A stretch of DNA of 64,000 nucleotides from positions 186,001 through 250,000 of the forward strand of contig JAQGDQ010000151.1 of NCBI GenBank assembly GCA_030141605.1, in the 5' to 3' direction. Below the pieces are notes generated by a model. That model saw nothing but the letters and a program-made list of their open reading frames with translations. It was not told where the DNA came from and did no database searches. Made by a program: the position numbers and the translations under genes. Each line of letters begins with the position of its first letter. The first letter of the stretch is position 1. The DNA is from Tubiluchus corallicola. Its lineage: Eukaryota; Animalia; Priapulida. Below are positions 9,719 through 62,918 of the stretch, in pieces.

Positions 9719-9794
9719 TTTATTTTATTGTTTTATTTTGTCAGATTTCACAGGCGTCGGATCTGTTCACCTGTGTGTTGCCTTTTGACTCGAG

Positions 9795-13547: not shown

Positions 13548-14255
13548 TATTGAAACAATAATTAAATTCAAGCCTGAAAACGAAAATGCAATTAGCTACG
13601 GGTTATAGTTTGATAGGTTTTCCCTAATTTTCCACTTCTCACGCCTCCACACACTCTTGCACTCAAACACAAAGAGAAACGTTTTTTTTTACTCTATTTC
13701 TTGTTAACGAGCTTCAACCCGTACAATTAAACTGGAGTTTTTGAGCGTAGGCCTTTAGTATCAAATGTATTGGCCAGAATTTTGTATGCGCAAAGTAAAT
13801 TTAAAAAGCTATAAACGCTTAGAACAAGCAACAGAGAAGCCAGGTAAACCTGCAGCATGTATACTTCCTGCCAACGAAGCTTTTTCTATATTTAGTTTGC
13901 GAAGAAACTGGACTTATGCCAAACTTTCAATAACGTCCTATGTAAACCTGACTAGACACCAGAATACAGTTAGGGAACAATGTCTAGGTTAAACTGCAAA
14001 ATATTGATTTAACTGGTGTATCTACAAAGTTTAAATAGAAAAACTGTTGTAACTACTATTTTCTGCCCGGTTTTTCACTTTTCGTTTAAGTAAAGCTGAA
14101 TCGTTTATCACACGGACAAAAATATTTCCTACTAGTAGTTAATGAAAGAAATTAACATTTCCGTGGCATTTGTTTAGCTCACACTGTATAACCAAGACTT
14201 GTACAAAACGGATGAAGATATCAACTCAAGTTGATATTAGACACGACAAAAAACG

Positions 14256-15398: not shown

Positions 15399-15444
15399 GT
15401 TAAATGACTATTCGTTTTAATCTGCTAAACACGACCGTGACAGT

Positions 15445-33169: not shown

Positions 33170-34963
33170 CCCCTGTTAAAGACTGCAGCATATTTTAGTT
33201 AACATTAACATCTTTTTTATATTGTAGCTGTGTACTGTAAATAAGTTTTCGTAAAAAATTTTCTCAGCAATGTTTTTTAGATGATACAGCCTATTTGAGT
33301 ATACTTTATATATGTTTCTGTCATATTCTGAAGGTGATATTTTATGTGTTTTGTACATTGTGCTTCATTTTCGAATTGAAGTTAATAACCCTGGAGTAAT
33401 CCAAGGTTTGTTAAATGTTTTGCTTTCCTTTCTTGACAAGGTCCTTATAGGGGCATGGATATTTAGGACGTGGGAAGTTTTCGAAGAAATTTGTAAAAGC
33501 ATCATTAGTATCAGTGATATTAAGTGAGTTTACTAACAATTTTTCAAGATCTTGTAAAAAGGACTCCGTATTGAAATTCTCTTTATCTCGTATTGTTATT
33601 TTAGTTTTAGCTTTGACTAGGTGAGCAGATTTTACAATTATAAATATAGGCAAGTGATCAGCTACTTCACTAAGTATGATACTAGAAACTATGTGGTTCT
33701 GATATGAGTTTGTATAGAAATGGTCTATAAGTGTTTGTGAAGTATGAGTAATTCTGGTCGGGTATGTTATTAAGGGTGTATAGCAATTTGTAAATAGCAT
33801 GTTAAGATAATCATTTACTTGTGATTTTTGTTCATACTGTAGTAGATTTATGTTTGTGTCGCCGCAGATATATGCGGTCCTTCCTGATGTGTTTATTTTA
33901 GATAAGACTCTTTCAGCCTCTTCTCGAAAGTGCTGTAGTGAAGTGTTTGGATGTCTGTAGATGACCCCAGAAATGACTGGTTTGCAGTTTTTTGCAGTTT
34001 TTAATTCTAGCCAAAGTTGCTCTACCTGTACCCTACTGGTCAAATTATTTTGTGTTTTTATAGCAGCTATTTGATAGTCTGTGTTTATAGAAAATGAGAT
34101 ATTTCGTTTTATGTAGATTCCTACCCCACCAGCATTTGTTTGTGAATTTACATTTAAAAATAAATAACCTGGTATATCACAAAGAAATGCTGTGTTGCTT
34201 TGTAGTTTTGTTTCAGAAATGGCGATAGCATCTGGTGGGTTATCCTCAAAATGTGCTAATACATAAAGCATGTTTGAGAAGTTCTTTGATAGACTTCGGG
34301 TATTAAAATGTATAAAGAACATGTCATTTTTGTTTACAACTAAATCAGAGTTTTGTCTCAGAGCAGCGAGCTTGTAGTATTTTCACATATTGAAGTTTCT
34401 GTAATGATCTGGATCCTGTTCATCATGTTCATTTGGGGTGAAAACTGATGATAAATTTTTTAAACATTGCTCATTTGGCTTGCACTGAAAATGTCTCTTA
34501 GCTCGTCATTTTCAGTGCTTTGAAAGGGGAGTATTCTATTTATACATGGCTGACAATAAAAAGGAATGTCTGAATTAGCCAACTTTTGAAAGTCTTGCAT
34601 TGTTATCATGGTGCATTTAAGATGACACCATTTCCTACAGATTTCGCAGTACAGGGCATTCTGATTAATTTTGCAAGCAAACGTACATCCAGTGCAGGGA
34701 TACTGAATTACCATTTAATTTATAACAATTTAAATACACAGATGTAGGTAATCTGTATATAGCTGGGTTCTATCTAAAGCATGTTTAAGTCATCTTCACT
34801 GTTTATTGTGATAACAGGGCTGCTATCATTTACTCTCATTTTGATTTTTCCATTTACAGTCCATAAATATTTTATGTTCTTATTTTGTTTTATGCATCGA
34901 CATTGAAACAGCAGTTTTCTCTTCATTTGCGTTAGAGATTCGTTAACATAGATTTTACTACTG
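33170..34963 (-). mobile_element. CR1/L2-group LINE fragment: ORF1 C-terminus, then ORF2 PHD finger and AP endonuclease, broken before RT
   Basis: 34774-34963 KIYVNESLTQMKRKLL...KYLWTVNGKIKMR (ORF1 tail); 34460-34714 C4HC3 PHD; 33411-34322 HFNTRSL, ISET, GGVGIY, YRHP, GDTN, PTR, LIDH, ADH. Confidence 0.9.
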
Positions 34964-36633
34964 TTGAGTCGCAGCAGAAGCGATTTAGCGATGACATCGG
35001 TAAGTGTGGTCTTGGAGCACTATAGTGACATAGCCAAGTGAGTTGTGGCACATGGCAGGCGTTTGCAAATTATATGTTAATAATACTTAGCAAAATGTTT
35101 TGAAAAGAAAGGCAGTGTTGGCCTAAATTGCTTTAAGCATTAAGATATAAAGAAAGAAGTCCATACTATTGAATCTGTGTGAGATGAGCGATATTCTGAA
35201 TTACAGATAATCGAATTATGCAGAGTCTTTTGTTGTCTGAATTCTGTTATAATAATAGTACTATATTAATAGTGACTCAGGGGCCTATATTCATAAACAC
35301 TGCATATGATAGGAAGAACTACTATGACCTGATATGAAACTGCATATGATATGAAAAATAAGTGCTAACCCGGTGTTGAAAGTTTTGTGACCTACTAAAA
35401 TACCGTACGTTGGAGTCTGATTTACATTTCAGATGTATCAAATGGTATGAAAATTCATTGGCAACTTTCGTCTCGGAAAGCAAATGGTTTGCCAATTGAA
35501 TTTGATGGCATTCCTTTTGTCTTCTTGGGCAAGAAGACATACTCTTGCCATCATGGCAGAGACAGAGGACTGTCAGCAAAGAAGAAATGGAAAGAAGATA
35601 AGGATCGGCGTATGGTGAGGCCCACATTTTTTCTTTCCTATTCCTAAATGTGCCTTAAACTAAATGAGATCTCATCATAAGTTGGAACATACAATTAAAC
35701 CACATATCCGTTTAATTTATGCAATTCTTAGCCTTTTAATAAAAGTGTTAATACTATTTTAAGCCATAAGGGAACCACCAACAGATATTAGTTTTTTGGT
35801 TTTTATGCTTAATATATCTATTTAATTTGCAATGTACCATGCTGTATTCTGCTTTTGATTTTAATGTTTAATTTTTGCCATTTATTGCTATGCTTTATAT
35901 AAATAATTTTGTTTCATTTGCTTGTTAAATTGCCATTTCAGTTTGTTTTTCCCATTGCATGTTACTTGGGTTGCTGAAAAAAGTGGAAAGAAGACAAGAA
36001 TTGGTGAGGCCAGGTTTTTAATTTACCAGTCTAATATAAAGTTCTGTGGCCAATGAACAAACTATTGCATTACCCATAGTTTGGAGCAAACCAACAAATC
36101 AGAAATGAAAAGTCAAGGCCTGAGTAGCTATGTTTATTTAACAGCCCTAGCTGACTGAACTTTTTTCCATTACAAAGCATATCTTACTTGTTTGTGAGAT
36201 AGTTGGCAACCCAAGAACAGTTTCTTGTGGTTAATAAAATAGTCATAATGCATTTTTAGTGTACTCATTTGTGAGATTGTCTTTGCATCACTAATGTAGC
36301 TTTCTAGTATAAAAAGTGGCATAATAAGTACTTATGTCAAGTGATTGACATTTGATGCATCTGGTTCAAACACGAAGATACTGCAGAAACTAATAATTAA
36401 AACAGAGCAAGAGCAAGAGCCTGTTAGCATTGCTGTGATATATGCTAGCTTAGAATACATATACACCCAATATGCACATCTTAAATCACATTTCTATGTA
36501 GTGAATTTGATTTTATTTTCAGAGAAATGATCATGCATTTGTAAAAAGCAGATTTCTGCAGCAGCCTACAAAAAAGATGGGTTGTCCTGCAACAATCCAG
36601 ACAAAAAAAATTGTGAAGTTTCCAAAGTTTAAG
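34963..36633 (+). pseudogene. CaRF-like / Mutator-type transposase N-terminal gene fragment, copy A (partial exon 1 to 34999, exons 35433-35614 and 36523-36633)
   Basis: Spliced translation ...FDGIPFVFLGKKTYSCHHGRDR...|RNDHAF...TKKMGCPATIQTKKIVKFPKFK resembles the CaRF FDG.PF...C..G and CPA.I..K.V.KFP motifs; canonical GT-AG with compatible phases. Confidence 0.7.
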
Positions 36634-37733
36634 GTGAATGAAATGTGTTGTAGTAATATTTTGTTTTGCCTGAGCTAAATAATTTGCATGTTGGTCAGAA
36701 TAGTTATGAATATTATCTTTCTTTTTTGCATTATTCAGAAAAGGTCAAATTTCACTTGTTTTATACCTTGGTGTGTAAAATTTGTTTGATTGTTTAAATT
36801 TGCTTAATGAAACCACCAAGACAGCACGCGATATGTAGCATATGTGGCTGAGTATATTATAATACCTTTTCCTACAACAATTCTTTTTAAGTATTATTTC
36901 TGAAATATAAAAAGTTGCAAACAACGTCGAATTGATTTTTCATGTATGCCACGGACAGAAAAGAAAACTTCTTCGTGGAGCTTTTTTGCTATGCTATGGC
37001 TTTTATTAACTCAATGGCCAATCCATTGATATATGCTTTTATATACACAAACATTTTAAGCTAAGTTTTGCACACATGTTGACATGTAAATCAGGGGAGC
37101 CAAATTTCAATTCCTTATAAAGATTTTGGTTAATATGGCTATTGAATGTCACAGTGTTTGATTTACGCATATAATTGGACAAGCATTTACAATACGAACA
37201 GCTAAAGCAGACTTCATATTACACATGTTAAAATTGCAACCATATCAGTTTGCCACAACAGTAACACAGCTCTTGAATTACAATAATGCTAAGTCGATGC
37301 TTGCAGCTTGTCAATGTCTACTTATGTTTTACGTACAGTAAAAAGTAAATTTCCTCTCAACACACTTTAGCTTCAAGGTTGTCCAATTTTGTCAATGGAT
37401 ATTCCTGTTGGCAACATGTCCACTATTTCATGCTGTTCTTCCCTCTGTAAAATTAAATGACTGATGCCACCCAAGCTATGTGAGTGGATCACACTTAGTA
37501 TATTACTTTTGTTCCTGAAAAAGTTGCTACTTTAGTTAGTATTAATCTGTATATATTTACAATAAACAAAGCTAATAAAAATGAACCCAATATAGCAAAT
37601 TAAGAAAATAATATGAATGTGAGTATAATAATAATATGAATTAAATAATAATAATATGAGTCTTTTACAAGTTTCCTTCTTCAGCAGCAATACACACACA
37701 TGTAACTGAACGAAGTACAACTTACGTATTGCT

Positions 37734-38651
37734 TGGTTCCCTTATGGCTTAAAATAGTATTAACACTTTTATTAAAAGGCTAAGAGTTGCTTAAATTAAA
37801 CGGATATGTAGTTTAATTGTATGTTCTCACTTATGATGAGATTTCGTTTAGTTTAAGGCACATTTAGGAATAGGAAAGAAAAAATGTGGGCCTCAGCATA
37901 CGCCGATCCTTATCTTCTTTCCATTTCTTCTTCACTGACTGTCCTCTGTCTCTGCCATGATGGCAAGAGTATGTCTTCTTGCCCAAGAAGACAAATGGAA
38001 TGCCATCAAATTCAATTGGCAAACCATTTGCTTTCCGAGACGAAAGTTGCCAATGAATTTTCATACCATTTGATACATCTGAAATGTAAATCAGACTCCA
38101 ACGTACGGTATTTTAGTAGGTCACAAAACTTTAAACACCGGGTTAGCACTTATTTTTCATATCATATGCAGTTTCATATCAGGTCATAGTAGTTCTTCCT
38201 ATCATATGCAGTGTTTATGAATATAGGCCCTTGAATCACTATTAATATAGTACTATTATTATAACAGAATTCAGACAACAAAACTCAAGACTCTGCATAA
38301 TTCGATTATCTGTAATTCAGAATATCGCTCATCTCAGACAGATTCAATAGTATGGACTTCTTTCTTTATATCTTAACGCTTAAAGCAATTTAGGCCAACA
38401 CTGCCTTTCTTTTCAAAATATTTTGCTAAGTATTATTAACATATAATTTGCAAACGCCTGCCGTGTGCCACAACTCACTTGGCTAGGTCACTATAGTGCT
38501 CCAAGACTGGACACTTACCGACGTCATCGCTAAATCGCTTCTGCTGCGACTCAACTACATAATGAGTTGTGGTATCCAATTCATGTTGTTCGATCACACG
38601 AACGCAATCATTCACATTGGATACTACAACAATCTTGTATGCAGCAGCCAT
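37734..38651 (-). pseudogene. CaRF-like / Mutator-type gene fragment, copy B (exons 38519-38651 and 37897-38078), inverted relative to copy A
   Basis: MAAAYKIVVV...HELDTTTHYVVESQQKRFSDDV|DVSNGMKIHWQ...; 37734-38555 is the near-identical reverse complement of 34963-35777; the exon-2 donor is CT instead of GT. Confidence 0.75.
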
Positions 38652-43341: not shown

Positions 43342-43432
43342 ATGAAGAAACTTACTTGGAACTTCATCATTAGCATTGCAATATTTTGCCTTATTCAGCT
43401 GGTACATACTGGAAAGTTCGGTTTTGACTATG
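43342..43432 (+). CDS. Signal-peptide exon 1 of a WSC-domain gene
   Basis: aaccATG; MKKLTWNFIISIAIFCLIQLVHTGKFGFDY then G|gtaagt, phase 1, matching the WSC exon. Confidence 0.75.
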
Positions 43433-45999
43433 GTAAGTTGGACAACCATGAACATGATATTAAATGATTAGACGACTAATGCAACACTCTTTTACATGTC
43501 TGAATGGATTTGGGAAGATGACACTAAAGTTCAACATAACCATTAATTATACATCAAATTGGGGAGAACCTTATTTTTAGTACAGAAGAATTAACCAGTG
43601 TCTGTCTACTCTGCTGGAATGTTACCGGAATGAAATTTTCGTTTTGGTTCCATGCCTATAATTACATTTTCGGTTAAGTTTCAGTCTCGAAATTAATTAC
43701 TTTTTTTCTGTAGCATTTTTCCGAGATTTTACTATTTATCGAATTTATGTTTTCTCCCAGATGCCAAAAGTATTGGCTAAAATAAGGCAGATAAGCCAAA
43801 ATGTTTTGTTTACATGACAGTTAGTGATGTGTTTTTTACAACAATGCGGCATATCTTCGGTGTTGACGATTGTGAAGCTTTAAGGTCTTCAGGCCCAATA
43901 ATCAATCAATTATTTTTTTTATTATGAATAAAAATAAATAAATAAAATAGAATATCAAACTGTTAATGATGACACAACTGCAAGAATAGTTTGTAACATA
44001 GCAAGGAACTGTTTAACAGGTTTATTATGAGTAGATACAGTAGAATATTTTTACAAAACTTATTAGCCGTTTCAGAAATTATAGGAAAATTATCAGCTTG
44101 AACAGAAAACAATTCAGAATAAATTACCATTTGCTTTTTAGTCTCTGCGCTGAGCTCACGTTCAGCCACGGAAAAGCCGAACAACAAAATTGCATAAGTT
44201 TCGGTAAACATCGGGATTAGTGCACGTAAAATAAGCAGTCGAGCTGGAATAAGTGCATGAACAAACTAAATGGAACAGATTGCACAAATGCGCGGAATTC
44301 ACACTTCCACTCCAGTTTCGGACATAGAACTGAAGACAGACAAACACAGTGGACCATGAACAGTCCAAGGTAGAAAACAACACCTCAATACAATGCGACC
44401 ACTATGAGTACTTTTAACTCACTGTCAGAACAAGAATCTAGCTCACAAGTGTAGGTTGGAATCAAACCTAACGTAAGATATAATTTTTGGTTATGCCACA
44501 AGGTAGATGACTTGTCCCCTTTGCATCGCATAAGTACACATCACATTTAGTGCGCAAGAACAGAAGTGGTCGACTGCAGAACCACAAGCTTACACAATTT
44601 GTGTGCCACAAGCTATTAAACAGCTATTAAACCTAGAATTGAAAACAGTTACTATACTGGCCCAATAAGGATTTAATGCTGGCTTAGTTAAGTTGCTTGA
44701 ATAAAACATTAATTAAGCGAATTCTGGCACATTAATGCAATTTCAATTTCTGGTACAATATTGACAGCAAAAGAAGTCAAAACATTGTTTTGCCGTAACA
44801 AATCCATTAATGGCGCGATTCTTGTTAGCCAGCATTGGCCTAATTGTAGATTGCCTGCATTCGCCCTCCTTATCCCATACAGGCAGTCATGCAGGCACTG
44901 TCACAACCAAGTTAGTACTGGGCCAGCAATGCTATCTATATTATGGCTAGTAAGTGGCATGCCATCACTGGCACTGTTAAGGTTTGCTTGTACTCGCCCA
45001 GCATCTAAGTCACCCATTCCCTTAAAAGCGATGCCGCAAACGTGCCAGTCCCGGACCAGTAATGTTAACTATATTATGACTGGGAAGTGGCATACCATCA
45101 TTGGCCCAGTTATTGTTTGCTTTATGCCAGCATTGGCGCAATGAGCTGTAATTAAGCCAGAACTTGCCCATAATGCCAGTGTTTGCTGGAAGATAAAAAA
45201 TGCATACTATGTTCGAAATGTGACCATGCAAATCAGAAGATTTCAGAAAATTTTTGATTATTTTCTGGAAAACCCATGCAGCAAGTAAATTGATTTCACA
45301 CTGTAATTGTGCAGTTAAATTTAGTTAAATGTAGATCTACATTTTATTTCCTCGCTTTGAAAACAAAAGCAACGAATTAACAACGAATTAAAACATCATG
45401 ATGAAAACTAGTTAATGATACAATATATACAAGAAAGTGTTAGACGTTACAACATTTTGACACAATTTCAGAAATCAAAATAATATCTTTCGTGCATTTA
45501 CATATATCAAATAATTATACAATCACAGTATGAGGAAAAACCTGTTGCATGCCCTTTTCACAGTCTGACAGGCTAGCTTATACAATCAAATTACACAAAT
45601 GAAGTAATTATGAAGTTAATGACTGCTGACACAGTGATTCACCTGACTTTAGACTATTTATCATGTAATTTAGATTTACTTCATTCAAAGGGTTAAATAC
45701 TTTAAATGTAAGTATACAGAACACTCTGCAATGCATAGTTAGGAATTTCATCTAACTTTCACACAATGATTCATGTAATTAATGGCTATGATATAATACA
45801 ACAAATGAATTACATCTAACCTTAACCCAAAGGTGTTAGTTCAAAAATAATTGTTTCCTTTAGAAAAGTATTTCCGACACTATTTTTTGTGAGTAGCAGG
45901 CTTGCAGTTTTTACTCAACATCAGGGATGCCAGCTAGCCAGGATGATCTAATGTTTTTACCTGTTGTGTGCAGTGGGTTGTAGAGCAAGCATGCAACCG

Positions 46000-46075
46000 G
46001 CCAGCTATGGGAGTGCTGTGAGCTCCGCCAGCGGGGTTCAGGGCAGAGCCCCAGCCACCAACGCATTTTCGTTTG
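46000..46075 (+). repeat. Core of a common invertebrate MITE-like repeat
   Basis: GGGAGTGCTGTGAGCTCCGCCAGCGGGGTTCAGGGCAGAGCCCCAGCCACCAACGCATTTT; recognised from memory as a frequent interspersed-repeat core. Confidence 0.45.
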
Positions 46076-46245
46076 TTTAAGGGTATTTTAGTGGCGTCAA
46101 ATGAGATATGGGGTGTGGTTCACAGACCTCAAAACGTGAAAAATGTGCTGGTGATATTGAATTTTATGCAAATTTATCTTTAACTTTTATAGCAAATGTA
46201 AAGAATAGATTGTAGTTATTGAAAATTCAGCAGCCCTACAGATGA

Positions 46246-46453
46246 AATAACAAATTCTATGCCTCAATTCTACGTCAAACCAGCAGAAACAGGATCGCGT
46301 ATGTCAAGGGGCTTGAGATGTACAGATTCGTCAAGAAACTTCTACCCAAAAATCGCGTAGTAACACGCATAGAGGATCTACAAAACGAACGACCGCCGCC
46401 GGCCATACGATGGCAAAGCCATCCGGGCAGCCGAAACATTGGCCAACTACTAA
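46246..46453 (+). pseudogene. 3' remnant of a Polinton/virus-type nuclease-like ORF
   Basis: ASILRQTSRNRIAYVKGLEMYRFVKKLLPKNRVVTRIEDL resembles the YVKGLEK...L......V...EDL motif I recall from DEDD-exonuclease-like ORFs of Polinton/virus-like elements; probable shifted tail KAIRAAETLANY*. Confidence 0.45.
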
Positions 46454-46996
46454 TTCTTCGATCAGAACAGTCAACATCGTCGCAACGGCTTCATTCGCGC
46501 ACCGTTTTGATTTGAAGATGCTTACAAGCCAGATTGGGTGGAAAACGCTACACTCGTAAACCGCAAATGCTTCTGCTGAAACGAGGGGGTGGCACGTTGG
46601 TGATTTTCGCCTCCGGATCGACGGTGATTAACGGTTTTTCCCAGAAACGAAAACTAGAAAATTCCATCCTCGAACTCACCAAACGTCACGGACTGACACT
46701 TGCCGCACTTGCAGTAGTACGAACCGTCACCACCAGTGCTAAACTTCTATGCAGACTGAACCACCTGCACTTTATCGTGAACTCTTAAAGTTACCATGTT
46801 GTTTTAACGAAGTGTTTTACGAAGTAAAACTTTTTTTCCCAAATTAACTTGTAAATGTGGTCAGATGACGCTAAATGTTTTCCACACTGGAAATGTAATA
46901 ATGATGGGGGGAGCAGAGTTGGGAGGTTTCTTGCATGCTTTTCTTAAATTTAAAGATTTCGCATACGAGAAGAATGATGTTTGCTTGCCTGCTTAA
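46410..46996 (+). pseudogene. Intronless divergent TATA-binding-protein-like gene with ~3 frameshifts
   Basis: Repeat 1: IRTVNIVATASFAHRFDLKMLTSQI/GGKRYTRKPQMLLLKRGGGTLVIFASGSTVING. Repeat 2: VRTVTTSAKLLCRLN/PALYREL...FYEVKLF/PKLTCKCGQMTLNVFHTGNVIMMG...HAFLKF. These align by eye with TBP NIVST..L...LDLK, IFSSGK.V.TG, YEPELFPGL and IFVSGKVVLTG. Confidence 0.8.
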
Positions 46997-47259
46997 CGAA
47001 TGTCATATGTAACTGTAGAATGAATTATTTCGTATCGCATAAACGAATTTATATAATTGTATAATGAGATGTGTAGAATTTTAATAATTATTTTGTATTA
47101 CATATGTGAATGGAGAAGTGCATAATCAAACGTGTAGAATTTTAATAATTATAGAAACATGTAATCAAATATAGAAACGTGTACTTGTTGAAATCATTTG
47201 TACATGAACAATGAATATTTATTAAAATGAGATTTTTGTTGTTTGGAGAAGTATTTCAA

Positions 47260-47290
<31 letters not shown>

Positions 47291-47399
47291 AAAACAAAAT
47301 TTTCTCGGCAAAGCTTAATTAAATAGCGCGTGTTGATGATTTAATCAACGTGCTGTAACGTGTATGTCTTCGTGTATTATGCAATCATAAAAGCAATTG

Positions 47400-47930
47400 C
47401 ATAAGATCATTATACATTCTTAGAGCAACCACGCATGCGCAAACCTACAACACTTACACCACATTTCACAAGATAGGATTAGACCACCCGCGTATGCGCA
47501 AACCTGCACCTCATCTCGCAACAGGATAGGGTTAGAGCAAGCTGGCACATGCACAACAAACCTACATCACTTATACCACATTTAACACATGCAAACCAAT
47601 CAATTGAACATTATTTGGAGGGGTGAGGTGCAGTTAGGGTTAGAGATGACTGTTACTTGATCAGTTCCATTATTTGAAGGGTGTTAGGGTTTGCAACTAG
47701 GGTTAGGGTTGGACATTATGTTAGGGATAATAACTAGTTTTTGGGCAGTTCCATTATTTGAAGGGTCCTCCTCCTCTCCCACCTCTCCTTCTCCCGGGAG
47801 GAAGGAAGGGGAGGGGGAGAGGACCCCCCGGCCAGCCACGCCGGAACATTACATTATTTTAAAGGGGTGAAAAGATGAGGGGGTTGGGCACCCAGAGGTC
47901 AAAGGTTCAGGGAAAACACAGTGAGGCATA
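47400..47930. repeat. Subterminal repeat block with TTAGGG-like units and a GC-rich hairpin
   Basis: CGCATGCGCAAACCT-type repeats x3, CAGTTCCATTATTTGAAGGGT x2, scattered TTAGGG, and an imperfect palindrome at 47763-47826 centred on CCCGGG. Confidence 0.7.
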
Positions 47931-47999
47931 AACTACCCTACACACCTTGCTCAAGAACATAAAAAGTGCATTTCAAAATGAAACCTCAGCATTTAACAG

Positions 48000-48740
48000 T
48001 TCAGTCTGTCACCCACTGGTCAAAGATCAACCAATGTCGACATAACTTATTTCATTTTTGCTTGTCTCATTGAGACGTTTCATTTGATATACTACAAGCT
48101 AATTTTGGTTAACACTTAAAGGCATTTGTCTTCTCGATCCTATTTTGCCCCTGCTAGGGTCAGAGGTCAACCAATCTTGGCATAACTTATGCCATTAAAG
48201 CTCACTGAGACCTTTCATTTGATTTACTAAAAGCTACTTTTGGTCGACCCTGAAAGACATTTGTCTCCTCGACCCTAATTGGATCACAGGTTAACAAGTC
48301 TTACTGTAAACAATACAGTTTGTGTACTCATCGAGACCTTTCATTTGATATGCTACATGGTGGTATTCCTAGACAATCGATGCATTTCTGGTCTTGACCA
48401 ACGATTGTTTTAGTTTTTGCCCCTTATTGGGGTCTGAGATTAACCGATCGCTGTACAGTTACTACCATTCAATTTGTCTCATTTAGACCTTTCATTTGAT
48501 AGACTACGAACTGGTTTCAGTCGACACTAGAAGGCATTTGTCTTCTCGCCCGCTATTTTGCCCCCTAGAGGGTCACGTGTTAATGATTCTTATTGTAACC
48601 TATGCCATTCGATCTGCCTCATCGAGACCTTTCATTTGATATGCTGCACGGTACCGTTGCTCAGCACCCGCTGCACTTCTGTTTTTGACCCACATTTTTC
48701 GGGTTTTGCTCCCTACCAGGGCCGCGGAATTAACTATTTT
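48000..48740 (+). repeat. Diverged tandem array, 5 units of ~125-150 bp
   Basis: AGAC(C/G)TTTCATTTGAT recurs near 48072, 48207, 48333, 48485 and 48624; CATTTGTCT..TCG occurs in several units. Confidence 0.75.
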
Positions 48741-49122
48741 TAACAGCCTCCAACTATTTGTAACACTGAATATTGGAAGCTGCGATAATATAATTACATT
48801 TAAAGAATTGCTCAAGATAACATCATTTTAAATTAGAGCATGGAAATTCAATTGGATTTTAATTTGGCCTACGTTTTGTAAATTTGATTTTATATGGATT
48901 TTTAAAATTAATGGCGTTTCTTTATAATGCGTATACGTTTATGATTTATTTTAGACTTTTAAAATCTTTGGTTGTAAAGCGCAACTGAGTATCTTTATAT
49001 ATTTTGAGGCACTATATAAATTTTCTATAATAGTAAGATTAATAATAATTTACTATCGTTAGTTGTTTCCTGAGTTCTTAAACATCTGGTTTTCAATTTT
49101 TTCTTTAAACACATCTTTGCAG

Positions 49123-49455
49123 ATAATGAAGATATCAATCAGAAACACATGTATAACTTGTTTGGTTGCTGGTCCGATATGTCTGGTGACAGAGATCTAC
49201 CAACTGAAGACTTGGATTATGCTTATTTTAGTGGAGATATAATATCTTTATGTATAGCTTCTTGCCTGTACCAAGGCTATTCCTATGCAGGGATGCAGGA
49301 AAGTACCCTATGTTACTGTGGAAATGCATACGGAAGACATGCGAAAGGCGACGAATGCAATTTACATTGCGCAAGTTCTAATAAAAAGTGCCAAGTGGAT
49401 AAACATACTTGCTGTGGAGGATATGACCAGTCTATTATTTATGCTACATTCACTG
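49123..49455 (+). CDS. WSC-domain exon
   Basis: tttgcag/gtgagt boundaries, phase 1-1; GCWSD...RDLP...CIASC...GYSYAGMQ...CYCGN.YG...CNLHC...CGG......Y fits the WSC cysteine pattern. Confidence 0.92.
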
Positions 49456-52266: not shown

Positions 52267-54828
52267 TGTTTTTACTCTTTACTATGGTCACTTGTACCAA
52301 TTATCGTATTCGTTATCATGTATTATTAATCTCTCTGATTAATATTGATTCTTATCTCTCTCGTGATCGTATAACACGTGACCTAAAGAGACACACGACT
52401 TATTTAAAGAGTGATTCGCTTCTATTACATTAATTGCTATAAGGTTATTTACAACCTGGCTCCTAGAGCTTAAGATAAGCCTATAGGGCTATGATATCTT
52501 CCCACAAGACTGTTTCTATGACTCCGCATTGTGATTAGAGTCTTTATCTCTAAAGCTTACTAGCAAAAGTTCCCGCAATTGAACTTGTAAATTAACTTAA
52601 TGTACACAGCAAATCTTCAGATTCGTTTACAGAATTTAATGTTGCTTAACTGAAACACCTATAAGCATACACAAACTACCGTAAAACGGGGTGAGTTCGC
52701 CACCCGAGGGTGAGTTCGCCACCCCTTACGTAAGGGCCATTGAAGGTTTGCTGTAACTATTGTTCAGTGTTTAATGAACAGATATCATGATCACCGTCAT
52801 TATAAACAGTTTGCGACAGTTATCTTTTTTCAATTCGCTCTAGAAGTACTCCATTCTGCGCTACATATTATTTGTCTACTATTTCTTGCTACTTAACATG
52901 CCACGCACCTACACCCCTGTACCGGGTCATAGATAACAATATTATACCCCAGAAGCTCTGGAAGCTGCCCTACATGCCGTCAAGAATACCAACAGGACAA
53001 TCAGCGCAGCGGCGAGGCAATTCGGAGTTCCAAGAAAGACCCTTTCTGACAAACTCTCAGGTAGTCATCCGCTGAAGACCGGAGGTCAGCCAGTGTTCTC
53101 CGCCGCCGAGGAGCACGAAATCGCCAACACTCCAAGTGGCCGCTGAATGGGAGTTCCCAATGACTGCCATCGATCTCCGACTACTGATTAAGAGTGTTCT
53201 TGACGCGAAGGGAATCCGGGAACGACGATTCAAGGCAAACACCCCTGGAATAGACTTTGTCAAATCATTCGCCCGAAGGAACAATCTGGTTTTCAGAGCG
53301 GCTGGCAACATCAAGGGCGCCCGCGAAAAGATCAGTGCACAAGACGTTCAAGCCTTCCTTGCCAACGTAGAAGTTTCTATTTGAAAACTAAAACTGGACA
53401 TTTTTCATAATTTTTTCATAGGGTGGCGAACTCACCCCCAACCAGCCAATCACAACCAGTTAACTTCAGCTGCCTAGAATGGCATTAAAGAGTGTAAAAT
53501 CGTTAATGGCGAATTCACCCCACGATAGTGTTTCATTCGAAAGGCAATATAAAGCTTGAACTAAGAAAATTGGTTTGGTAATTCTCTTGCTATGGCAGGA
53601 AACGTAAAAAAATACCCCTAAAAAGTGGCGAACTCACCCCGTTTTACGGTATTCCTTTAAGTTAAAGTGAAATCCGTTTATTGTTTTACAACAATTACTC
53701 CTAGTCAACTAATATTACAATGTTTGATCTTAATCGCCAAAGACGCTCACAATTAATAATTAGCTCCAAGAGACACTAATCCGATTCACTTAACTATTTC
53801 CTTGCTTCGCACTTAAGGTGCTAATTACAATGTGAAGTATGCAATTACAATCAACTAAACGTTACACTTAAGGTGTCTATTACACTGTGAATTTGCTACT
53901 ATGCAGAGTTGCTCTCAAGTTACGATACGTTAAGATCACTTAACTTGGTGGAATGACCAATGACGACTGTTCAATTGGTCAACTCCAAATCCGTTGCAAG
54001 ACTAATCGTAGATCCAGTGCTCAACAGTTGAGTACGCAGATTTGATGTTGATGTCCACGCTGGTCTTACGTGTCTTTGCTTCCTCAGCCTCTTCTCTCTG
54101 GACGTCACGTGGTTCACTCACCTCAACTCACTTCTAACTCTCTCGCAGCCTCCCTCGTTCCTCAAGACAATCGTCTTATATATCCAAGCCGAGATTTCAT
54201 AACATTGCGTGCTAACGCTGCAATGTGTCGCAATAGCTCTCGCTTTAGCGGTAACGCCGTAATGTAGCAATAGTTCAAAGGTCACCCCGGGCTTGTAAGT
54301 TTATAACCAACCAGGTGTTTTTCTAACACAGCTCCTTGCATGAGAAAACCGCTATCTGACTCTCCGTCCTTCACAGCATCTAACTTCCAAAGATTGCTCT
54401 TCACTTCGCTTGGGCAATAAACCTTTCTCTCAAAGAAATCCACTCTTCGTTATTTCTTAATAATTATGGCAACTCTGCATAACATTACATGAGGCTTATT
54501 ATCTAACCACGCATAGCTATAAAAATAAGCTTCGCTTCCTCTAAACTAAACACCTGCAATTTCTACGCTCTCTTAAATAAACACGTGTGACAAACTTTTA
54601 CTTTCTAAATGAACGCCTGTTCTATTCCTTGTAAACCCAAATAACTCTGCGACGATAATTTCTTGCCTTGCATTAAATATGTGCTTTAACCAGCTAAGCG
54701 AGTTCCCATAATCTTTCAATAAATTTATCTAATCCAATTAGGAGGTATCTTTATCAACATAATCTAATGAAGTTGATAACTCCATTAATTAATCACTTAA
54801 TTCATGATTCCGAAATTTATTCATAACA
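52267..54828 (-). mobile_element. Solo LTR related to the downstream element, inverted, interrupted by a pogo element
   Basis: Reverse complement starts TGTTATGAATAAATTTCGGAATCATG at 54828, is colinear with but diverged from 55116-56547, and ends ...AAAAACA at 52267. No TSD seen. Confidence 0.85.
52679..53649 (+). mobile_element. pogo/Tigger-like non-autonomous DNA transposon (HTH_psq plus CENP-B-type HTH, no DDE domain)
   Basis: TIRs CCGTAAAACGGGGTGAGTTCGCCAC / GTGGCGAACTCACCCCGTTTTACGG with TA on both sides; 52898-53384 MPRTY...*...ISAAARQFGVPRKTLSDKL...FSAAEE...WEFP...PGIDFVKSFARR with one in-frame stop. Confidence 0.93.
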
Positions 54829-55115
54829 AAGAATCATTGCTTAGATATTCAGAGCTTGGCTTCATTAGTTGAAACGTGTTTCTGTTCGCGTTCTTCTGTG
54901 ATTTAACGAAATTGTCAGAATATACGGAGTTATATTCACTATCAACGAACGCGTAAAGATGTGAGGAATATGAATATATAACTCATTTTTCTGATAAACG
55001 TACTCATCAACTAAAATTAAGCTAAAATCAACTTAATTATTGTGAAAAGGGTGCAATATATACTGGTTTCGTACTGCTTGGCTGGTAAGGTGAGTACAGA
55101 TAGTAACAACAGATA

Positions 55116-56547
55116 TGTTATGAATAAATTTCGGAATCATGAATTAAGTGATTAATTAATGAAGTTATCAACTTCATCAGATTATGTTGATAAAGAGACC
55201 TCCAAATTGGATCAGTGAAATTTATTAAGAAAATATGGGAACTCACTTAGCTGATAAAGCCTATATTTATTGTAAGGCAAGGAATTATTGTCACAAGAGA
55301 TGTGTTTACAAGTAATAGAACAGGTGTTCATTTAGAGAGGAAAAGTTTGTCACAGGTGTTTGAATTTAGGAGAAGCGAAGCTGAATTTTATAACATGGAG
55401 TGGTTAAGAGTATATACCTCCTGTAATGTAATGCGAGTTGCTGGACTATAATTGGGAAGGAGCAGGAAGAAGCTCATTTCTTGAACAGAAGTTTATGACC
55501 CAAGCGACGCGAGTTTCTCAGGTGAGAGGCTACGCGACCTGGACATCTGGTTGAACTATTGCACCACCTTGAGCGTCAGCACGCGAGATGATGAAATCTC
55601 CGCGTGGGTATATAAGATGGTGTTTGGCAAGGGCTCGGGGGGAAGAGTCGGCGGAGAGGAGTTGGAACTAAGTGGTTGTGGGTGAACCACGTGCCGAGAG
55701 AGAGAAGAGACTGGAGAAGCAAAGACAACGTAAGACCAGCGTGGACATCGAATCTGCGTACTCAATGAATTGAGCACTGGGCTACGAATCAAGTCTTGCA
55801 ACGGATTTGGAATTGACCAATTGAACAGTCATCATTGGTCATTCCACCAAGTTAAGTGAACTTAACGTATCGTAACTTGAGAGCAACTCTGCATAGTAAA
55901 TTCACAGTGTAATAGCACCAAGTTACGTGTGTTGATTGTAATATTCATTGTAATAGCACCTTAAGTGCGAAGTGAGGAAATCGTTAAGGGAATCTGTTTA
56001 GTATCTCTGGGAGCTAATTATAAATTGTGAGCGTCTTTGGCGATTAAGTACATATATTGTAATTTAGCAAACTAAGAGTAATTGTTGTAAACAATAAACG
56101 GATTTCGTTTAATCATAAATGATTAGTTCGAGTATGCTTAGAGGTGTCTCAGTTAAGCAACATCGATTTCTGTAAACGAGTCTAAGGATTTGCTGTGTAC
56201 ATTAAGTATTCTACGAGTTCAATTGCGGGAACTTTTGCTAGATAGCTTTAGAGATTAAGACTCTTTCACAACGCGGAGTCGTAGAAACAATCTTGTGAGA
56301 AGAAATCATTGCTCTATAGATTTTATCTTAAGCTCTAGTAGCCGGGTTGAGAATAACCTTTTAGCAATTAATGTATTAGAGGTGAATCCCTCCTTCAGTC
56401 TTAAGTCAAGTTTTATACGATCACATGCGACAGATAAGATAAGAATCAATATTAATTAGGGAGATTAATATTGCATATTAAAGAGTGACTAAGATAATAA
56501 AGTGATAACTGGTACTCGGATCCAGGATCATTAAGAAGGAGATAATA
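55116..56547 (+). repeat. 5' LTR (1432 bp)
   Basis: TGTTATG...GAGATAATA, followed by the PBS. Confidence 0.92.
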
Positions 56548-56549
56548 AC

Positions 56550-56568
56550 TGGTGCCGTGACCGCAGGA
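56550..56568 (+). promoter_or_regulatory. Primer-binding site, tRNA-His-like
   Basis: TGGTGCCGTGACC.CAGGA begins 2 nt after the LTR; resembles the complement of the tRNA-His 3' end (TGGTGCCGTGAC). Confidence 0.8.
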
Positions 56569-56885
56569 TTTTGTTTGCTTAACTAATTGTAATCAATATT
56601 GGTTGATAAGTTGTAAACTGTGAATTGCTGTTGCTGCTCAGGTGTAAACGGAAGTGAGAACAAGTCTGCTACGCTACTGAAAGGGAAAGTCAGCTGTCAG
56701 TCAGTGAAAGTGAACACAGCTGGGAGTTTATTGGAGGACAATTACCGAGGCGGTTCTAGAAGTTATTGGAGATCCCCAAACAAAATTGGTAGGTGGGTTT
56801 TATTGTCAAAAGGTGTTAACAGCCTGTGGTAAATTGAAACTATGATTGGTGCAGATTGCTGAAAGAAGCAAACGTAAAAATAAAT

Positions 56886-58322
56886 ATGTCGAACCCTCCT
56901 GTTATTAGCTCAGACTTGTTAAGAGCAGATGAAAACCCTCTGGTGGAGAGAATGAATTGGCTCTCTACCCAGTTAGGCGCCATTGCGGATCAATGGGCCT
57001 TAGGCAATGCAGTGAAAGTTATAAAGAGCTTTACCAGCGAGGAAAATGATTGCAGTGAAAGTTTTAGACAATGGACACAAGACATTAGCCGGAGAGGCTT
57101 CTGCATGTCACGTGACTCAGAAAAGACCGGTGGATTATGCATAAGATTAGCATATATGACAGTAGGCGGGGCCTGTGGGCGATATTTAGATGCTAGCCGT
57201 AAAATATGGTCGAAATTGAACTGGGGTCAATTTGTTTCGTTTTTAGAACCTAGATATGTCAGTAGGGTGGAATTAACTAGACATATGTTAGAATTAAGAT
57301 CGATGCGGCAGCATAGACAGGAATCATTGTGGCAATTAGTGGATAGAATTTGGTTCCACGCGAGAATCGCATATAAACCTTGCGAAATAGATGAACCATT
57401 AGTACAAAAGGTTTTAATTGACGTGTTGGTAGAATCACTGATAAGTGATAAGTTACGTGCGAAGTTAATTAAGCACAATCCAGCCACTTTAGAAGCAGCG
57501 CATGCTCGCTGTAGGTTGGAAGAAAGCAATCAAGGAATTGCTAGGTTAAGGAACCGACATTTGTCACGTCAAGGGCGTGTGGAAACGCCACAAGAGTTAG
57601 GGAAAATGGCAGCCATAAATAACGAAGAAGAAGAGTGTGTTAGATGCCCACAGAGTACTAATGGGAGAGTGCTGCAGACCAGAGCCTTGCAACCCCGAGA
57701 TAATGAATGCAAGGAGGTCACGAGTAGGTTACGAAGCTACCGGCGGTCTGTCTCCGCCGACCGGAGCTTATATGTGGAGACTGGCGGCGCTATAGATGAT
57801 AAATATTTGAATAAAAGACGAGTGTGCAGAGATTGCAGTAAAATGGATATTAGCAGAGAAAGGCATGATGCGCGTAATAAGTGCCAGAGTAATTTGAGAA
57901 TGGCGGGTATAAAAAGGGGTGATTGGAAGGCCGTGAGAGAGCCTCGATCTCACAGGTCCATAGGTAGGAGAGAATCATTAATCATCCAGCCAACATGTTT
58001 TGTTGAGTTAAATAGACGACCGACACGCTTATTGGTGGGCACAGGTGCTTCCACCTCTTGTTTATCCTTAAAACTATATAAACGACTAGGTATGGGTGCT
58101 CCTAATGTAAGCAACATGACGTTGCGAGATGCCTCAGGCACGGCTATGCCTGTAGTTGGCGAAAAAGTTATAGAAACGAAATTTGGGGATAGTAAAGTAC
58201 GCCTTAGATATCAGATTAACAAGAGGAATGGGGGCACCTCAAGTGTCCGCAAGGACCCTAGGCAGTTTCCATGTTTTCTGCTGATGAAGGGCGAATTAAC
58301 GTCCTACTGTGGTACCTTCTAG
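56886..58322 (+). CDS. Gag plus inactive aspartic protease of the LTR element
   Basis: Capsid-like SF.....FRQW, L..MRQ...ESL, LRAKLIKHNPATLEAA; decayed knuckle; LLVGTGASTSCLS (Gly at the catalytic Asp position) and LRDASG..M.VVG flap. Confidence 0.8.
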   Translation: MSNPPVISSDLLRADENPLVERMNWLSTQLGAIADQWALGNAVKVIKSFTSEENDCSESFRQWTQDISRRGFCMSRDSEKTGGLCIRLAYMTVGGACGRYLDASRKIWSKLNWGQFVSFLEPRYVSRVELTRHMLELRSMRQHRQESLWQLVDRIWFHARIAYKPCEIDEPLVQKVLIDVLVESLISDKLRAKLIKHNPATLEAAHARCRLEESNQGIARLRNRHLSRQGRVETPQELGKMAAINNEEEECVRCPQSTNGRVLQTRALQPRDNECKEVTSRLRSYRRSVSADRSLYVETGGAIDDKYLNKRRVCRDCSKMDISRERHDARNKCQSNLRMAGIKRGDWKAVREPRSHRSIGRRESLIIQPTCFVELNRRPTRLLVGTGASTSCLSLKLYKRLGMGAPNVSNMTLRDASGTAMPVVGEKVIETKFGDSKVRLRYQINKRNGGTSSVRKDPRQFPCFLLMKGELTSYCGTF

Positions 58323-61300
58323 TCGGCGTATGTATCGTACTGTTTCTCAACTGCAGCAGGCCGTAGCCGCAGGGTCATAAATCCCTACTTGAGCGAGGCC
58401 GTAGTAAAGAGTTAGATTCCGGCACGGGGATGCCGAGGTAAAGAGTTAGGTTCCGGCACTGGGATGCCGAGGTAATGATAGTAATTAGGGCAATGGAATG
58501 CCGAGATGATGAATTAAGATGGCGAGGAATATGCCAAGACATGCACTGGGTGCGTTATGATGAATTAAGATGGCGAAGAATATGCCAAGACATGCACGGG
58601 GTGCATTGTAAGTAAATGTTGACAAATGAAAGGTCGACTAGGAAGCTGGTAGCTCAGGCAGTCAAAGTACTGGTACTGCCACAGAGACAGCGATTATAAG
58701 TCTGCAGTTGTGGAATAAGTGATACATATGTGGTACGAGGATGACAGTCCTCACCTAGCTAGGTGAAGTGTGAATTTTGCTTCTTTTATAGCACTTCTCT
58801 AGTGAACAGGCTAGGCTGGTGAAAACGGTCAAAGTTCATAGAGGGATAGCGAGATTTCCTATGGATCAGACCGTCGGTTGCCTCTGGGCGTGAGCCCTTT
58901 GGTCCCTATAAGGGATGGGGATGGTTTGCTGTGCCAGTGAACTGCAAGCAAGTCATCTTCGTGATCACTATCGACTGGGTCACCGGCCGGTAATCTCACT
59001 GATTGCCAATAAGGTGAGATTGCTCAATGTACAGTCAGGCCTTAGCAAGCCGAATTGTGAACAGGTGAGCTAAGTCTCTGTGATCGACTGAAGCTGAAAA
59101 GGTTAAGTCGGGAAGCAGAGAACACAGTGGCACAAGGTGATGCACTGTGTGGAAAGGGGTCCAGCCCGGGGTGCGTCCCATACAGGGGAGCCCAAAGGAC
59201 CTAAAGCGTATGAAGATGAAGGGCCTCCTTCCCTAGAAAGGGTCCTTCATGTATCTAGGCCCAGCGCTGTGTGGCGCTGGTTGCACTATTAAGAAGGTGT
59301 TTAGCAATATGGGCAACGAGTGTCTGCGCTGTAAAAATATTAGACTGACCTAGAAGACTAATGGGGAAATTTAATTTAGAATAGAAGCTTGATTCGAAAA
59401 ATAATGGAAATGTATAGTAAAGAGCCAGCCGAACTATATTAAAGCTTAAATAGCAATAGATAGGCACTAGTGACATCTAGCGCCCAGTTCCCAAGTTGCA
59501 GCGCAAAAGTAAAAGGCAAGCACAGAGTTCTAGCAGGGTCAGTAAAGTTAGGTCGCGAACTAACTTACTCACCCGGCGACAGATGGCGTCACTGAGTGAT
59601 TACAAACCCCTGGCATGGGACGCTGTGCTAAGATTGTTTTCACAATATAGTGAGCTATTTCTCGCAGCTTGAACCTATTAAACGTACATTAAATGAGCAG
59701 GAGATTAAAGCTCTCATAAGAATTTATTGGTAAGGCAATGTACGGAGAGTATCGGATAATTGCCGAAAATCTCTAAGAGTATTTGGAGTAAAAGTTCAAT
59801 GAAAAGGCTTACAACAAGGCCATTAATACATTGCTGCAAGTGAAAGTGCTTAAGCGAAAGTGAAAGCGCTACCCGATAGAGGTTAGAGAGAACCGTAAGG
59901 GATATCCATTTAACTAAGAGTGAAAAGGGGAACTGAAGGTGGCTGGAGCTTGTCCGCTCTGATCGGATCCATTAGAGCGGGACAGGTAATAGAAGAATCA
60001 ATAGCTAGGTCGCATAGGAGAACTTGAGAAAACGTTTACTGGGAGTAAACAAAAGATGAAAAGAATTTTAAGAGGAAAAGACAGTGCAGATAATTAGAAC
60101 TCGACCAATATTAAAATAAAATGCTGCCAGAGGTACCCGAGTTCACCCACCAGGAGCGCTCATTGGTGAAAAAGGCACAGTTTGCTGCTAAAGCATAGGT
60201 CTCGAACGGTACCCTGTGGTGGTATACGAATCGCGCACGCAGATTAAAGGGAAAGAGTGTGCATTTTGACACACGGTAGCTAAACACACTATAATGTAAG
60301 AGTTCAGGTAGAACTCGCGCTGTTCGCAAGCGGGTTAGTCTAGTTATAAACTCTTGATATACTTAGCCTCGTATTAGGTTAGGAACTAACACTCCGCACA
60401 TGCGCAGCGAATTGATTAAATAAAAGTAAGATTAAGGAATAAATGCTTACTGATTATAAAGGGAACAGTAGGACTGTTCAGAGAGAATTAAATGCACGCA
60501 TGCGAAATAAATTTGAATAACTATAAAGCGTAAAGGTACGCACAAGTAAATTAGATGATTCTGATGTTGTTTGCGAGCGGTTTAGTTTAAGTTTAAACTT
60601 ACAATATGCTTAACTTCTATTAGGTTAAGAGCTAATATCCGCATACGCGCAGCAGATCTAATGATGAATAGTAAGGTTGGAATGTAATAACTTACTAATT
60701 CGGGAAAGCGGTTAGGGCTACTCTAGGGGGAGGAAAGTACCCTAACATAAGCACTAAGGGGCGCATTGCGCCACTACAGAAAGCTACTGTCAGGTTAAAA
60801 GTAAAACCAAATATAAGTACTATAAGAACTAGAGGTTCGATAAGGTTTAAATGAGGACAATGCAGAACCTAACCTCCGGCACGACAGACATGATCCCTAG
60901 ATATGTGAAGCTACCAGCGACCCAAGACGGGACAGAATTTGACGTGACCCTAGACGATCTAATATTGGCCAAGATAAGTGCCCACGAAACGGTCTAGATA
61001 TAACGAGAGGGTCGATTTAATGAAAAGTTTAATGGCAAATGAAGCCATGCGATAACAGGCTGGTAAGATTGGATGATGGTAAAGAAGCCACCCAATTAGG
61101 TGAAAGGGATGCATGTGAATAGTTGTAGTAACTATGTGGATGTTTAAATGACACCAAGGATACTGCGTATTGTATTTATGTTACAGGATAATGGGACCGT
61201 TGGAGATGAAAGGCGGGAAGAAGATGGAAGATGGCAAAGACCACACGGGGATAGCCGAGGAAGGAACTCAGGACACTAATGCATACGTGAACAGTGAATA

Positions 61301-61494
61301 CGTGAACCCCGGTCAAGGAAGCCAGAGGAAACCAATGGACAATGGTGTCCCGCCACCAAGACCACCATGACGGAATGTCCCATAATAGTTTAAGGATGTA
61401 ACATGTTATGTAGTATTCGTGTATAATTAAGGAGCTCCAAAGAGATGCGACCTTGTAGCGAAACATTAAATATAAGCCACATCTAAGTGAGTTT

Positions 61495-61508
61495 TAGGGG
61501 AGGAAAGT
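61495..61508 (+). promoter_or_regulatory. Polypurine tract
   Basis: TAGGGGAGGAAAGT directly before the 3' LTR. Confidence 0.85.
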
Positions 61509-62918
61509 TGTTATGAATAAATTTCGGAATCATGAATTAAGTGATTAATTAATGAAGTTATCAACTTCATCAGATTATGTTGATAAAGAGACCTCCAAAT
61601 TGGATCAGTGAAATTTATTAAGAAAATATGGGAACTCACTTAGCTGATAAAGCCTATATTTATATTAAGGCAAGGAATTATTGTCACAAGAGATGTGTTT
61701 ACAAGTAATAGAACAGGTGTTCATTTAGAGAGGAAAAGTTTGTCACAGGTGTTTGAATTTAGGAGAAGCGAAGCTGAATTTTATAACATGGAGTGGTTAA
61801 GAGCATATACCTCCTGTAATGTAATGCGAGTTGCTGGACTATAATTGGGAAGGAGCAGGAAGAAGCTCATTTCTTGAACAGAAGTTTATGACCCAAGCGA
61901 CGCGAAGGACAAAGGCGAAGCGGAGTTTCTCAGGTGAGAGGCTACGCGACCTGGACATCTGGTTGAACTATTGCACCACCTTGAGCGTCAGCATGCGAGA
62001 TGATGAAATCTGCGCGAGGGTATATAAGATGGTGTTTGGCAAGGGCTCGGGGGGAAGAGTCGGCGGAGAGGAGTTGGAACTAAGTGGTTGTGGGTGAACC
62101 ACGTGCCGAGAGAGAGAAGAGACTGGAGAAGCAAAGACAACGTAAGACCAGCGTGGACATCGAATCTGCGTACTCAATGAATTGAGCACTGGGCTACGAA
62201 TCAAGTCTTGCAACGGATTTGGAATTGACCAATTGAACAGTCATCATTGGTCATTCCACCAAGTTAAGTGAACTTAACGTATCGTAACTTGAGAGCAACT
62301 CTGCATAGTAAATTCACAGTGTAATAGCACCTTAAGTGCGAAGTGAGGAAATCGTTAAGGGAATCTGTTTAGTATCTCTGGGAGCTAATTATAAATTGTG
62401 AGCGTCTTTGGCGATTAAGTACATATATTGTCATTTAGCAAACTAAGAGTAATTGTTGTAAACAATAAACGGATTTCGTTTAATCATAAATGATTAGTTC
62501 GAGTATGCTTAGAGGTGTCTCAGTTAAGCAACATCGAATTCTGTAAACGAGTCTAAGGATTTGCTGTGTACATTAAGTATTCTACGAGTTCAATTGCGGG
62601 AACTTCTGCTAGATAGCTTTAGAGATTAAGACTCTTTCACAACGCGGAGTCGTAGAAACAATCTTGTGAGAAGAAATCATTGCTCTATATATTTTATCTT
62701 AAGCTCTAGTAGCCGGGTTGAGAATAACCTTTTAGCAATTAATGTATTAGAGGTGAATCCCTCCTTCAGTCTTAAGTCAAGTTTTATACGATCACATGCG
62801 ACAGATAAGATAAGAATCAATATTAATTAGGGAGATTAATATTGCATATTAAAGAGTGACTAAGATAATAAAGTGATAACTGGTACTCGGATCCAGGATC
62901 ATTAAGAAGGAGATAATA
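61509..62918 (+). repeat. 3' LTR (1410 bp)
   Basis: Copy of the 5' LTR with few substitutions and two indels. Confidence 0.92.

What the first reader, a model, noticed from the sequence alone, without database searches (positions are those of the whole stretch)
46410..46996. Hidden intronless TBP-like gene in a virus-like cassette inside a host intron
Seen: joining four reading-frame segments across ~3 single-base frameshifts (near 46536, 46761 and 46830) gives a ~195-aa protein with both TBP saddle repeats: NIVATASFAHRFDLK...LVIFASGSTVING and FYEVKLF/PKL...LNVFHTGNVIMMG. It has no introns, only a short N-terminus, and starts inside an upstream ORF. Established: animal TBP/TRF2/TRF3 cores are highly conserved and normally have introns, while large DNA viruses encode short divergent TBP homologues. 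Inference: this is too divergent to be a recent retrocopy of host TBP and looks like cargo of a virus-like or Polinton-like element with its own basal transcription factor. It is the best candidate here for an undescribed system.
Basis: partly seen in the sequence, partly recalled or inferred. Interest (0 to 1): 0.88.

Follow-up and report, generated by a model that had tools for sequence, protein, structure and literature searches.

The report
Fossil virus-like TATA-binding protein gene
Inside an intron of an animal gene lies a broken, truncated copy of a repeated element that carries its own, highly altered TATA-binding protein; the element is likely a Polinton-type virus-like transposon, and the intact protein would probably recognise the element's own promoters while borrowing the host's transcription machinery.

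Summary
46410-46996 is a real two-lobed TBP gene with three frame breaks. The first half, read with X at the break, passes Pfam's TBP cut-off. A natural relative, P0002, covers segments 2-4 in one frame at about 52% identity and models as a TBP saddle. The breaks are present in read contigs from two studies, so this copy is dead. It lies in intron 1 of a WSC-domain host gene, in a remnant of about 1.5 kb with many related contigs in the same organism. In the stretch shared with the deepest contigs, 4 of 4 listed differences are synonymous. P0002 is 21-24% identical to human TBP, so a recent retrocopy is excluded. No capsid, polymerase or integrase gene remains here. The Polinton assignment rests on a weak motif match of the upstream fragment and on earlier scan notes: six report Polinton-encoded TBPs in other genomes. 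P0002 keeps the TFIIB-binding glutamates, but its DNA-reading face is changed and the regulator-binding basic patch is lost.

The parts
46410..46996 (+). Broken TBP-like gene with both saddle lobes; frame breaks near 46536, 46761 and 46831; true start uncertain (46410 or nearer 46460)
   Evidence: breaks present in identical read contigs of two studies
46267..46515 (+). 3' remnant of an upstream ORF, overlapping the TBP start; carries a YVKGxE motif like the unnamed gene that follows the major capsid gene in Polintons (weak match)
   Evidence: (contigs of other copies depart at 46267)
46997..47260 (.). AT-rich (24% GC) 3' region shared with other copies, followed by a (CT)14 run at 47263-47290
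47304..47800 (.). Non-coding tail with short internal repeats and four TTAGGG words, variable in length among copies; possible end region of the element (inferred)
   Evidence: joints table; depth falls to single-haplotype level after about 47817
43342..43432 (+). Host gene exon 1 (signal peptide), context
49123..49455 (+). Host gene exon 2 (WSC domain), context; the remnant lies in the intron 43433-49122

Best explanation
This is a dead, left-truncated copy of a repeated element that encodes its own compact, divergent TATA-binding protein; the element is likely a Polinton/Maverick, and the intact protein is predicted to bind an element-specific promoter box and recruit host TFIIB and RNA polymerase II while escaping host TBP regulators. 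Shown: TBP family membership, the breaks, repetition in the genome, the residue pattern. Inferred: Polinton identity (about 0.65), an altered DNA preference, TFIIB use, and a role in switching on the element's genes (about 0.5). The copy in this window has no function of its own.
For: TBP: Pfam 27.7 bits for the first half; P0002 Pfam E 1.9e-15 with two stretches; model pLDDT 91, top PDB and BFVD matches all TBP or TBP-like where named. Repetition: 205 contigs of run X1 lie on 45900-48000, 84 of them under 90% alike. Summed depth over the gene is about 1,070-2,650, against 157-221 for window-identical contigs, with peaks of 16,600 and 11,400 on the upstream motif and the first TBP strands (depth is a rough guide, not a copy number). 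Selection: the 4 listed differences at 46484-46512 carried by the deepest contigs are all synonymous in the TBP frame. Foreign look: CpG observed/expected is 1.1-1.4, against 0.7 for the window. Carrier: the upstream YVKGxE motif occurs in an ORF right after the capsid gene in 3 IMG/VR Polinton contigs; a profile of those 3 scores the fragment at 10 bits, above 2000 of 2000 shuffles (best 3.7). Residues, read from alignments to yeast TBP: P0002 keeps F116, F190, F207, P191 and both stirrup glutamates E186/E188, the TFIIB signature of PMC7221094. It has polar residues at V161 and L205, changes at N159, T124 and T215, and lacks the helix-2 basic patch. A more polar DNA face goes with a private promoter box in KSHV ORF24 (PMC12529657).
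Against: No Polinton hallmark gene, paired terminal repeat or target-site duplication is present. The motif link is weak: the search pattern was built from the fragment plus a recalled motif, the pairwise match is 9 of 17 residues, and in a window-wide scan the fragment ranks 2 of 1128, behind an unrelated fragment. Those 3 Polintons show no TBP match. Only one relative was found, a singleton without context. The structure model used an alignment rich in cellular TBPs, so it is partly circular; the single-sequence model failed (pLDDT 38). In the window copy the second stirrup position is Lys and the F99 position is not Phe; decay cannot be told from family state there. The synonymous count is only 4 sites from a truncated table; of all 11 TBP-frame sites classed, 5 were synonymous and 6 were not. 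No promoter box could be tested.
Confidence: 0.6

Rival explanations
1. Fragment of an endogenous large DNA virus (nimavirus-like, herpes/mirusvirus-like or nucleocytovirus) whose TBP served its own transcription system.
For: These viruses encode TBPs: wsv303 is a nimaviral core gene, and endogenous nimaviruses reach hundreds of copies and often insert at telomere repeats (PMC10871703, passages). Four TTAGGG words lie within 90 bases of the tail, of 15 in the window. The best BFVD matches are giant-virus TBPs.
Against: The 17 BFVD matches at E<=0.001 are 13-22% identical, no closer than cellular TBPs. The protein is minimal and keeps both TFIIB glutamates, which PMC7221094 reports as diverged in viral TBPs. 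The upstream motif points, weakly, to Polintons.
Confidence: 0.2
2. A TBP-like gene carried as cargo by a non-viral DNA transposon (Helitron, or a MITE-flanked fragment) and amplified passively.
For: The remnant is flanked by other high-depth repeats at about 45950-46260 and 47960-48690.
Against: Contigs of other copies depart from the window at 46267 and fade by about 47800, so the flanking repeats are not shared with them. Synonymous bias and a relative at 52% identity imply selection on the protein.
Confidence: 0.1
3. An old retrocopy or fast-evolving paralogue of host TBP/TRF2, multiplied by duplication.
For: Intronless, and inside a host intron. No animal TBP or TRF2 row was available for the tree, so nesting in them was not tested.
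Against: P0002 is 21-24% identical to human TBP and scores worse on human TBP (E 0.13-0.65) than on archaeal or fungal TBP (E 6e-5 to 1e-3). It overlaps a second, non-host ORF under constraint. No poly(A) tail is seen. TBP paralogues mostly keep the signature residues (PMC7221094), and these do not.
Confidence: 0.07

Closest known systems
Cellular and archaeal TBP (Pfam PF00352; PDB 1ytb, 1cdw, 1mp9)
   Same: Two-lobed saddle, three of the four intercalating Phe, the first-lobe Asn, and both stirrup Glu in P0002.
   Different: 26% identity or less; second-lobe Asn replaced, DNA face more polar, helix-2 basic patch lost; intronless, repeated, overlapping another ORF.
TBP-labelled gene in midsize (MELD) viruses with adintovirus-like PolB (Starrett et al. 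2021, PMC8502044; sections 3.2 and 3.4 read, figure not seen, supplement search gave no hit)
   Same: A TBP-like gene in a polinton-related element.
   Different: The label is in a figure legend of the section on non-animal datasets, with no analysis; section 3.2 on animal adintovirus genes names no TBP. Sequence relation not tested.
Viral TBPs of nucleocytoviruses, mirusviruses and nimaviruses (PMC7221094 passages; PMC10871703 passages; PMC10132985 listing only)
   Same: Virus-encoded divergent TBP that has lost the host-regulator surface.
   Different: Those are large viruses, and many encode their own TFIIB. Their TFIIB-binding positions have diverged, whereas P0002 keeps both glutamates. 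Identity is 13-22%.
Herpesvirus vTBP, KSHV ORF24 (PMC12529657, passages)
   Same: TBP fold with a more polar DNA face, suited to a private promoter box.
   Different: ORF24 is a large protein with extra domains, lacks the TFIIB glutamates and binds polymerase directly. This protein is a minimal saddle.

Membership tests
TBP family (PF00352) | Profile match above the curated cut-off | tested here: met
   27.7 bits for the first half; 56.9 bits for P0002; cut-off 22.9
TBP family (PF00352) | Two-lobed saddle fold | tested here: met
   P0002 model pLDDT 91, Foldseek TM 0.52-0.69 to TBPs; the alignment was TBP-rich
TBP family (PF00352) | Four intercalating phenylalanines | tested here: inconclusive
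   F116, F190 and F207 kept; the F99 position is not Phe in the broken copy and is not covered by P0002
TBP family (PF00352) | Binds TATA-like DNA and TFIIB | not testable with these tools
   Residue inference only
Animal TBP/TRF2/TRF3 | High core identity to animal TBP | tested here: not met
Polinton/Maverick | pPolB and retroviral-type integrase | tested here: inconclusive
   Absent from the remnant; the copy is truncated and full copies could not be read
Polinton/Maverick | A32 ATPase, protease, double-jelly-roll capsid genes | tested here: inconclusive
   Not found in the window with 44 query ORFs from three distant Polintons
Polinton/Maverick | Terminal inverted repeats and target-site duplication | tested here: inconclusive
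   No paired repeat around the locus among the 25 of 29 inverted pairs shown, nor by self-BLAST; the left end is lost
Polinton/Maverick | Accessory gene shared with Polintons (not defining, supporting) | tested here: inconclusive
   Upstream fragment 10 bits on a 3-sequence profile, rank 2 of 1128 window fragments

The most novel reading that the evidence does not exclude
A still-expanding animal Polinton lineage encodes a minimal TBP that keeps the host TFIIB docking site but reads a different promoter sequence and evades TAF1, Mot1 and NC2: a one-protein, orthogonal promoter switch that redirects host polymerase II to the element's genes.
Probability: 0.3. Interest if true: 0.75.

Novelty: new variant of a known kind. 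Interest (0 to 1): 0.45.

Why it matters
How Polintons control their genes is poorly known (own knowledge), and my paper searches found no study of a TBP in animal Polintons (only the label in PMC8502044). A small TBP that pairs a changed DNA face with an intact TFIIB site would be a simple model of viral promoter selection and a possible orthogonal transcription tool. This locus is only a fossil pointer: its value is that deep, near-identical relatives appear to exist in the same genome.

Tried and rejected
Assembly error as the cause of the breaks: rejected, because window-identical contigs span breaks 1-2 in run X1 and breaks 2-3 in run X3 of another study. Word-based protein searches with segment 2, the first half and the upstream fragment found nothing. 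P0003 (ankyrin repeats) is a false hit. Locus L001 is a false hit in an alternative frame of a phage tail gene. No context loci in viral, metagenome or prokaryotic collections. 4 of 5 motif-scan loci (L002-L005) were unrelated and dropped. The single-sequence fold failed. The tree of 34 rows (32 chosen from 81 fetched TBP-like ORFs) joins the two family members at 100/100 on a long branch that cannot be placed. No RNA holder listed; run X6 laid nothing. The protein atlas gave no answer. No whole genome is held. PHROGs gave nothing significant. The Polinton post-capsid ORF has no significant Pfam match and no PDB match; the label 'DEDD nuclease-like' that I recall for it comes from no call. bioRxiv supplements could not be seen, and the figure maps of PMC8502044 are not held; either may show TBP genes in animal elements.

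Full report
Setting. The window is repeat-rich animal DNA, and no whole genome is held. A host gene has a signal-peptide exon at 43342-43432 and a WSC exon at 49123-49455, which splice in frame at canonical sites. The finding lies in that 5.7-kb intron.

Observation. Unjoined, segments 1 and 4 each give Pfam TBP as their only match, at E 0.029 and 0.16. Read with X at the first break, the first half scores 27.7 bits, above the cut-off of 22.9; 34 of its 38 PDB matches are TBP chains. An HMMER search of 1.84 billion proteins with segment 2 returned 2 hits. One, P0003, is an ankyrin false hit. The other, P0002 (145 aa, E 2.3e-11, a singleton from a 1.9-kb contig), covers segments 2, 3 and 4 in one frame. 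It matches the 193-residue read-through with X at all breaks over residues 53-192 at 52% identity. P0002 has two Pfam TBP stretches (E 1.9e-15). Folded with 45 aligned rows, mostly archaeal and viral-contig TBPs, it gives pLDDT 91 and matches TBPs in PDB and BFVD. That model is partly circular, and the single-sequence model failed.

The copy is dead. A 513-base contig identical to the window spans breaks 1 and 2 in run X1, which may be the source sample. A 300-base identical contig spans breaks 2 and 3 in run X3, from another study. Other contigs differ by indels at or within about 15 bases of each break, so the breaks belong to this copy.

It belongs to a repeated family. 205 contigs of X1 lie on 45900-48000 at 80% or more; 84 of them are under 90% alike. 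Window-identical contigs have depth 157-221. Summed depth over the gene is about 1,070-2,650, with peaks of 16,600 (46326-46396) and 11,400 (46468-46538). The tool warns that such depth is no copy number. I read it only as many copies, some near-identical to each other, that pass the 80% threshold mainly at the most conserved coding stretches. Five X1 contigs and three X4 contigs depart from the window at 46267, and depth falls to single-haplotype level after about 47817, so the remnant is about 1.5 kb and cut on the left. The four listed differences at 46484-46512, carried by the deepest contigs, are all synonymous in the TBP frame. Of the three at 46416-46458, none is synonymous in the TBP frame and two are in the upstream frame. 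This suggests selection on both genes, with a hand-over near 46460. The numbers are small and come from a truncated table: over all 11 TBP-frame sites that I classed, 5 were synonymous.

Not a recent host retrocopy. P0002 is 21-24% identical to human TBP, scores worse on human than on fungal or archaeal TBP, and is at most 26% identical to any of the 32 other rows in a tree. In that tree the two family members form an unplaced long branch. Animal TRF2 could not be included.

Which carrier? Nothing decisive remains in the window. 44 ORFs from three Polinton contigs matched only the Gypsy integrase at 10800-11147, and no locus with a relative was found in the collections. The upstream fragment carries YVKGxE, a motif I recalled from Polinton-associated proteins. 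A scan for it gave 5 viral contigs. One, L006, is a Polinton with double-jelly-roll capsid, A32 ATPase and PLA2-like genes, and two relatives, L007 and L008, also show polymerase and integrase ORFs (read by eye). In all three the motif-bearing ORF follows the capsid gene. A profile of the three scores the window fragment at 10 bits, above all 2000 shuffles but second of 1128 window fragments, and the test is partly circular. Six earlier scan notes describe Polinton-encoded TBPs in other genomes. They are unchecked leads, and no look-alike sequence was found among them. I put Polinton identity at about 0.65.

Mechanism. From alignments to yeast TBP, the family keeps N69 (window copy), F116, F190, P191 and F207, so minor-groove binding and bending are likely. 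P0002 keeps E186 and E188, the signature for TFIIB binding (PMC7221094, passages); the window copy has Lys at the second position, beside break 3. K133, R141 and K145 are replaced in P0002 and R137-K138 align to a gap. This is the basic patch used by TFIIA, TAF1, Brf1 and Mot1 (surface per PMC7221094; yeast numbers recalled). Both family members share N159 to T, V161 to T, L205 to N, T124 to N and T215 to M on the DNA face. KSHV ORF24 uses a polar DNA face for its own late box (PMC12529657, passages). The inference is an element-specific promoter factor that works with host TFIIB and polymerase II outside normal TBP regulation. None of this is tested, and no box can be examined in this remnant.

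What is known. Viral TBPs are established for large DNA viruses (PMC7221094; PMC10871703). Starrett et al. label a TBP on a midsize virus map in their non-animal section (PMC8502044). Searches for Polinton with TBP or TATA-binding found no dedicated study. Term look-ups for TATA or TBP in four Polinton or endogenous-virus papers gave no occurrence.

Verdict. A real but dead TBP-like gene from a repeated, probably Polinton-type element. The family is a new variant of a known kind; this locus is a fossil pointer to it. Interest 0.45.

Noticed in passing
window 45635-46240: A 3.1-kb contig at single-haplotype depth follows the window at about 88% identity to about 46240 and shows no listed match beyond; it may be an allele or paralogue lacking the remnant.
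   Followed up: no
window 47960-48690: High-depth repeat made of about 140-bp units, also present in run X5, which has little else of the region.
   Followed up: partly
window 34963-38555: 3.6-kb element with about 800-bp inverted arms at 97% identity; no long ORF seen inside.
   Followed up: no
window 55116-62855: Young LTR retrotransposon (long repeats 99% alike, gag-protease ORF 56838-58322), with an inverted related copy at 52310-54829.
   Followed up: no
window 8139-13595: Gypsy-type 1266-aa gag-protease-integrase ORF next to BEL/Pao-like integrase fragments, by eye.
   Followed up: no
window 4882-6210: 443-aa open frame that looks like a polycystin (PKD) channel exon, by eye; non-LTR reverse transcriptase-like ORF at 15403-17220 and endonuclease ORF at 33411-34382.
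   Followed up: no
L006:5427-5969, L007:10001-10363, L008:7043-7543: Conserved ORF right after the capsid gene in three IMG/VR Polintons (about 170 aa in L006 and L008, 120 aa in L007), with no significant Pfam or PDB match.
   Followed up: partly
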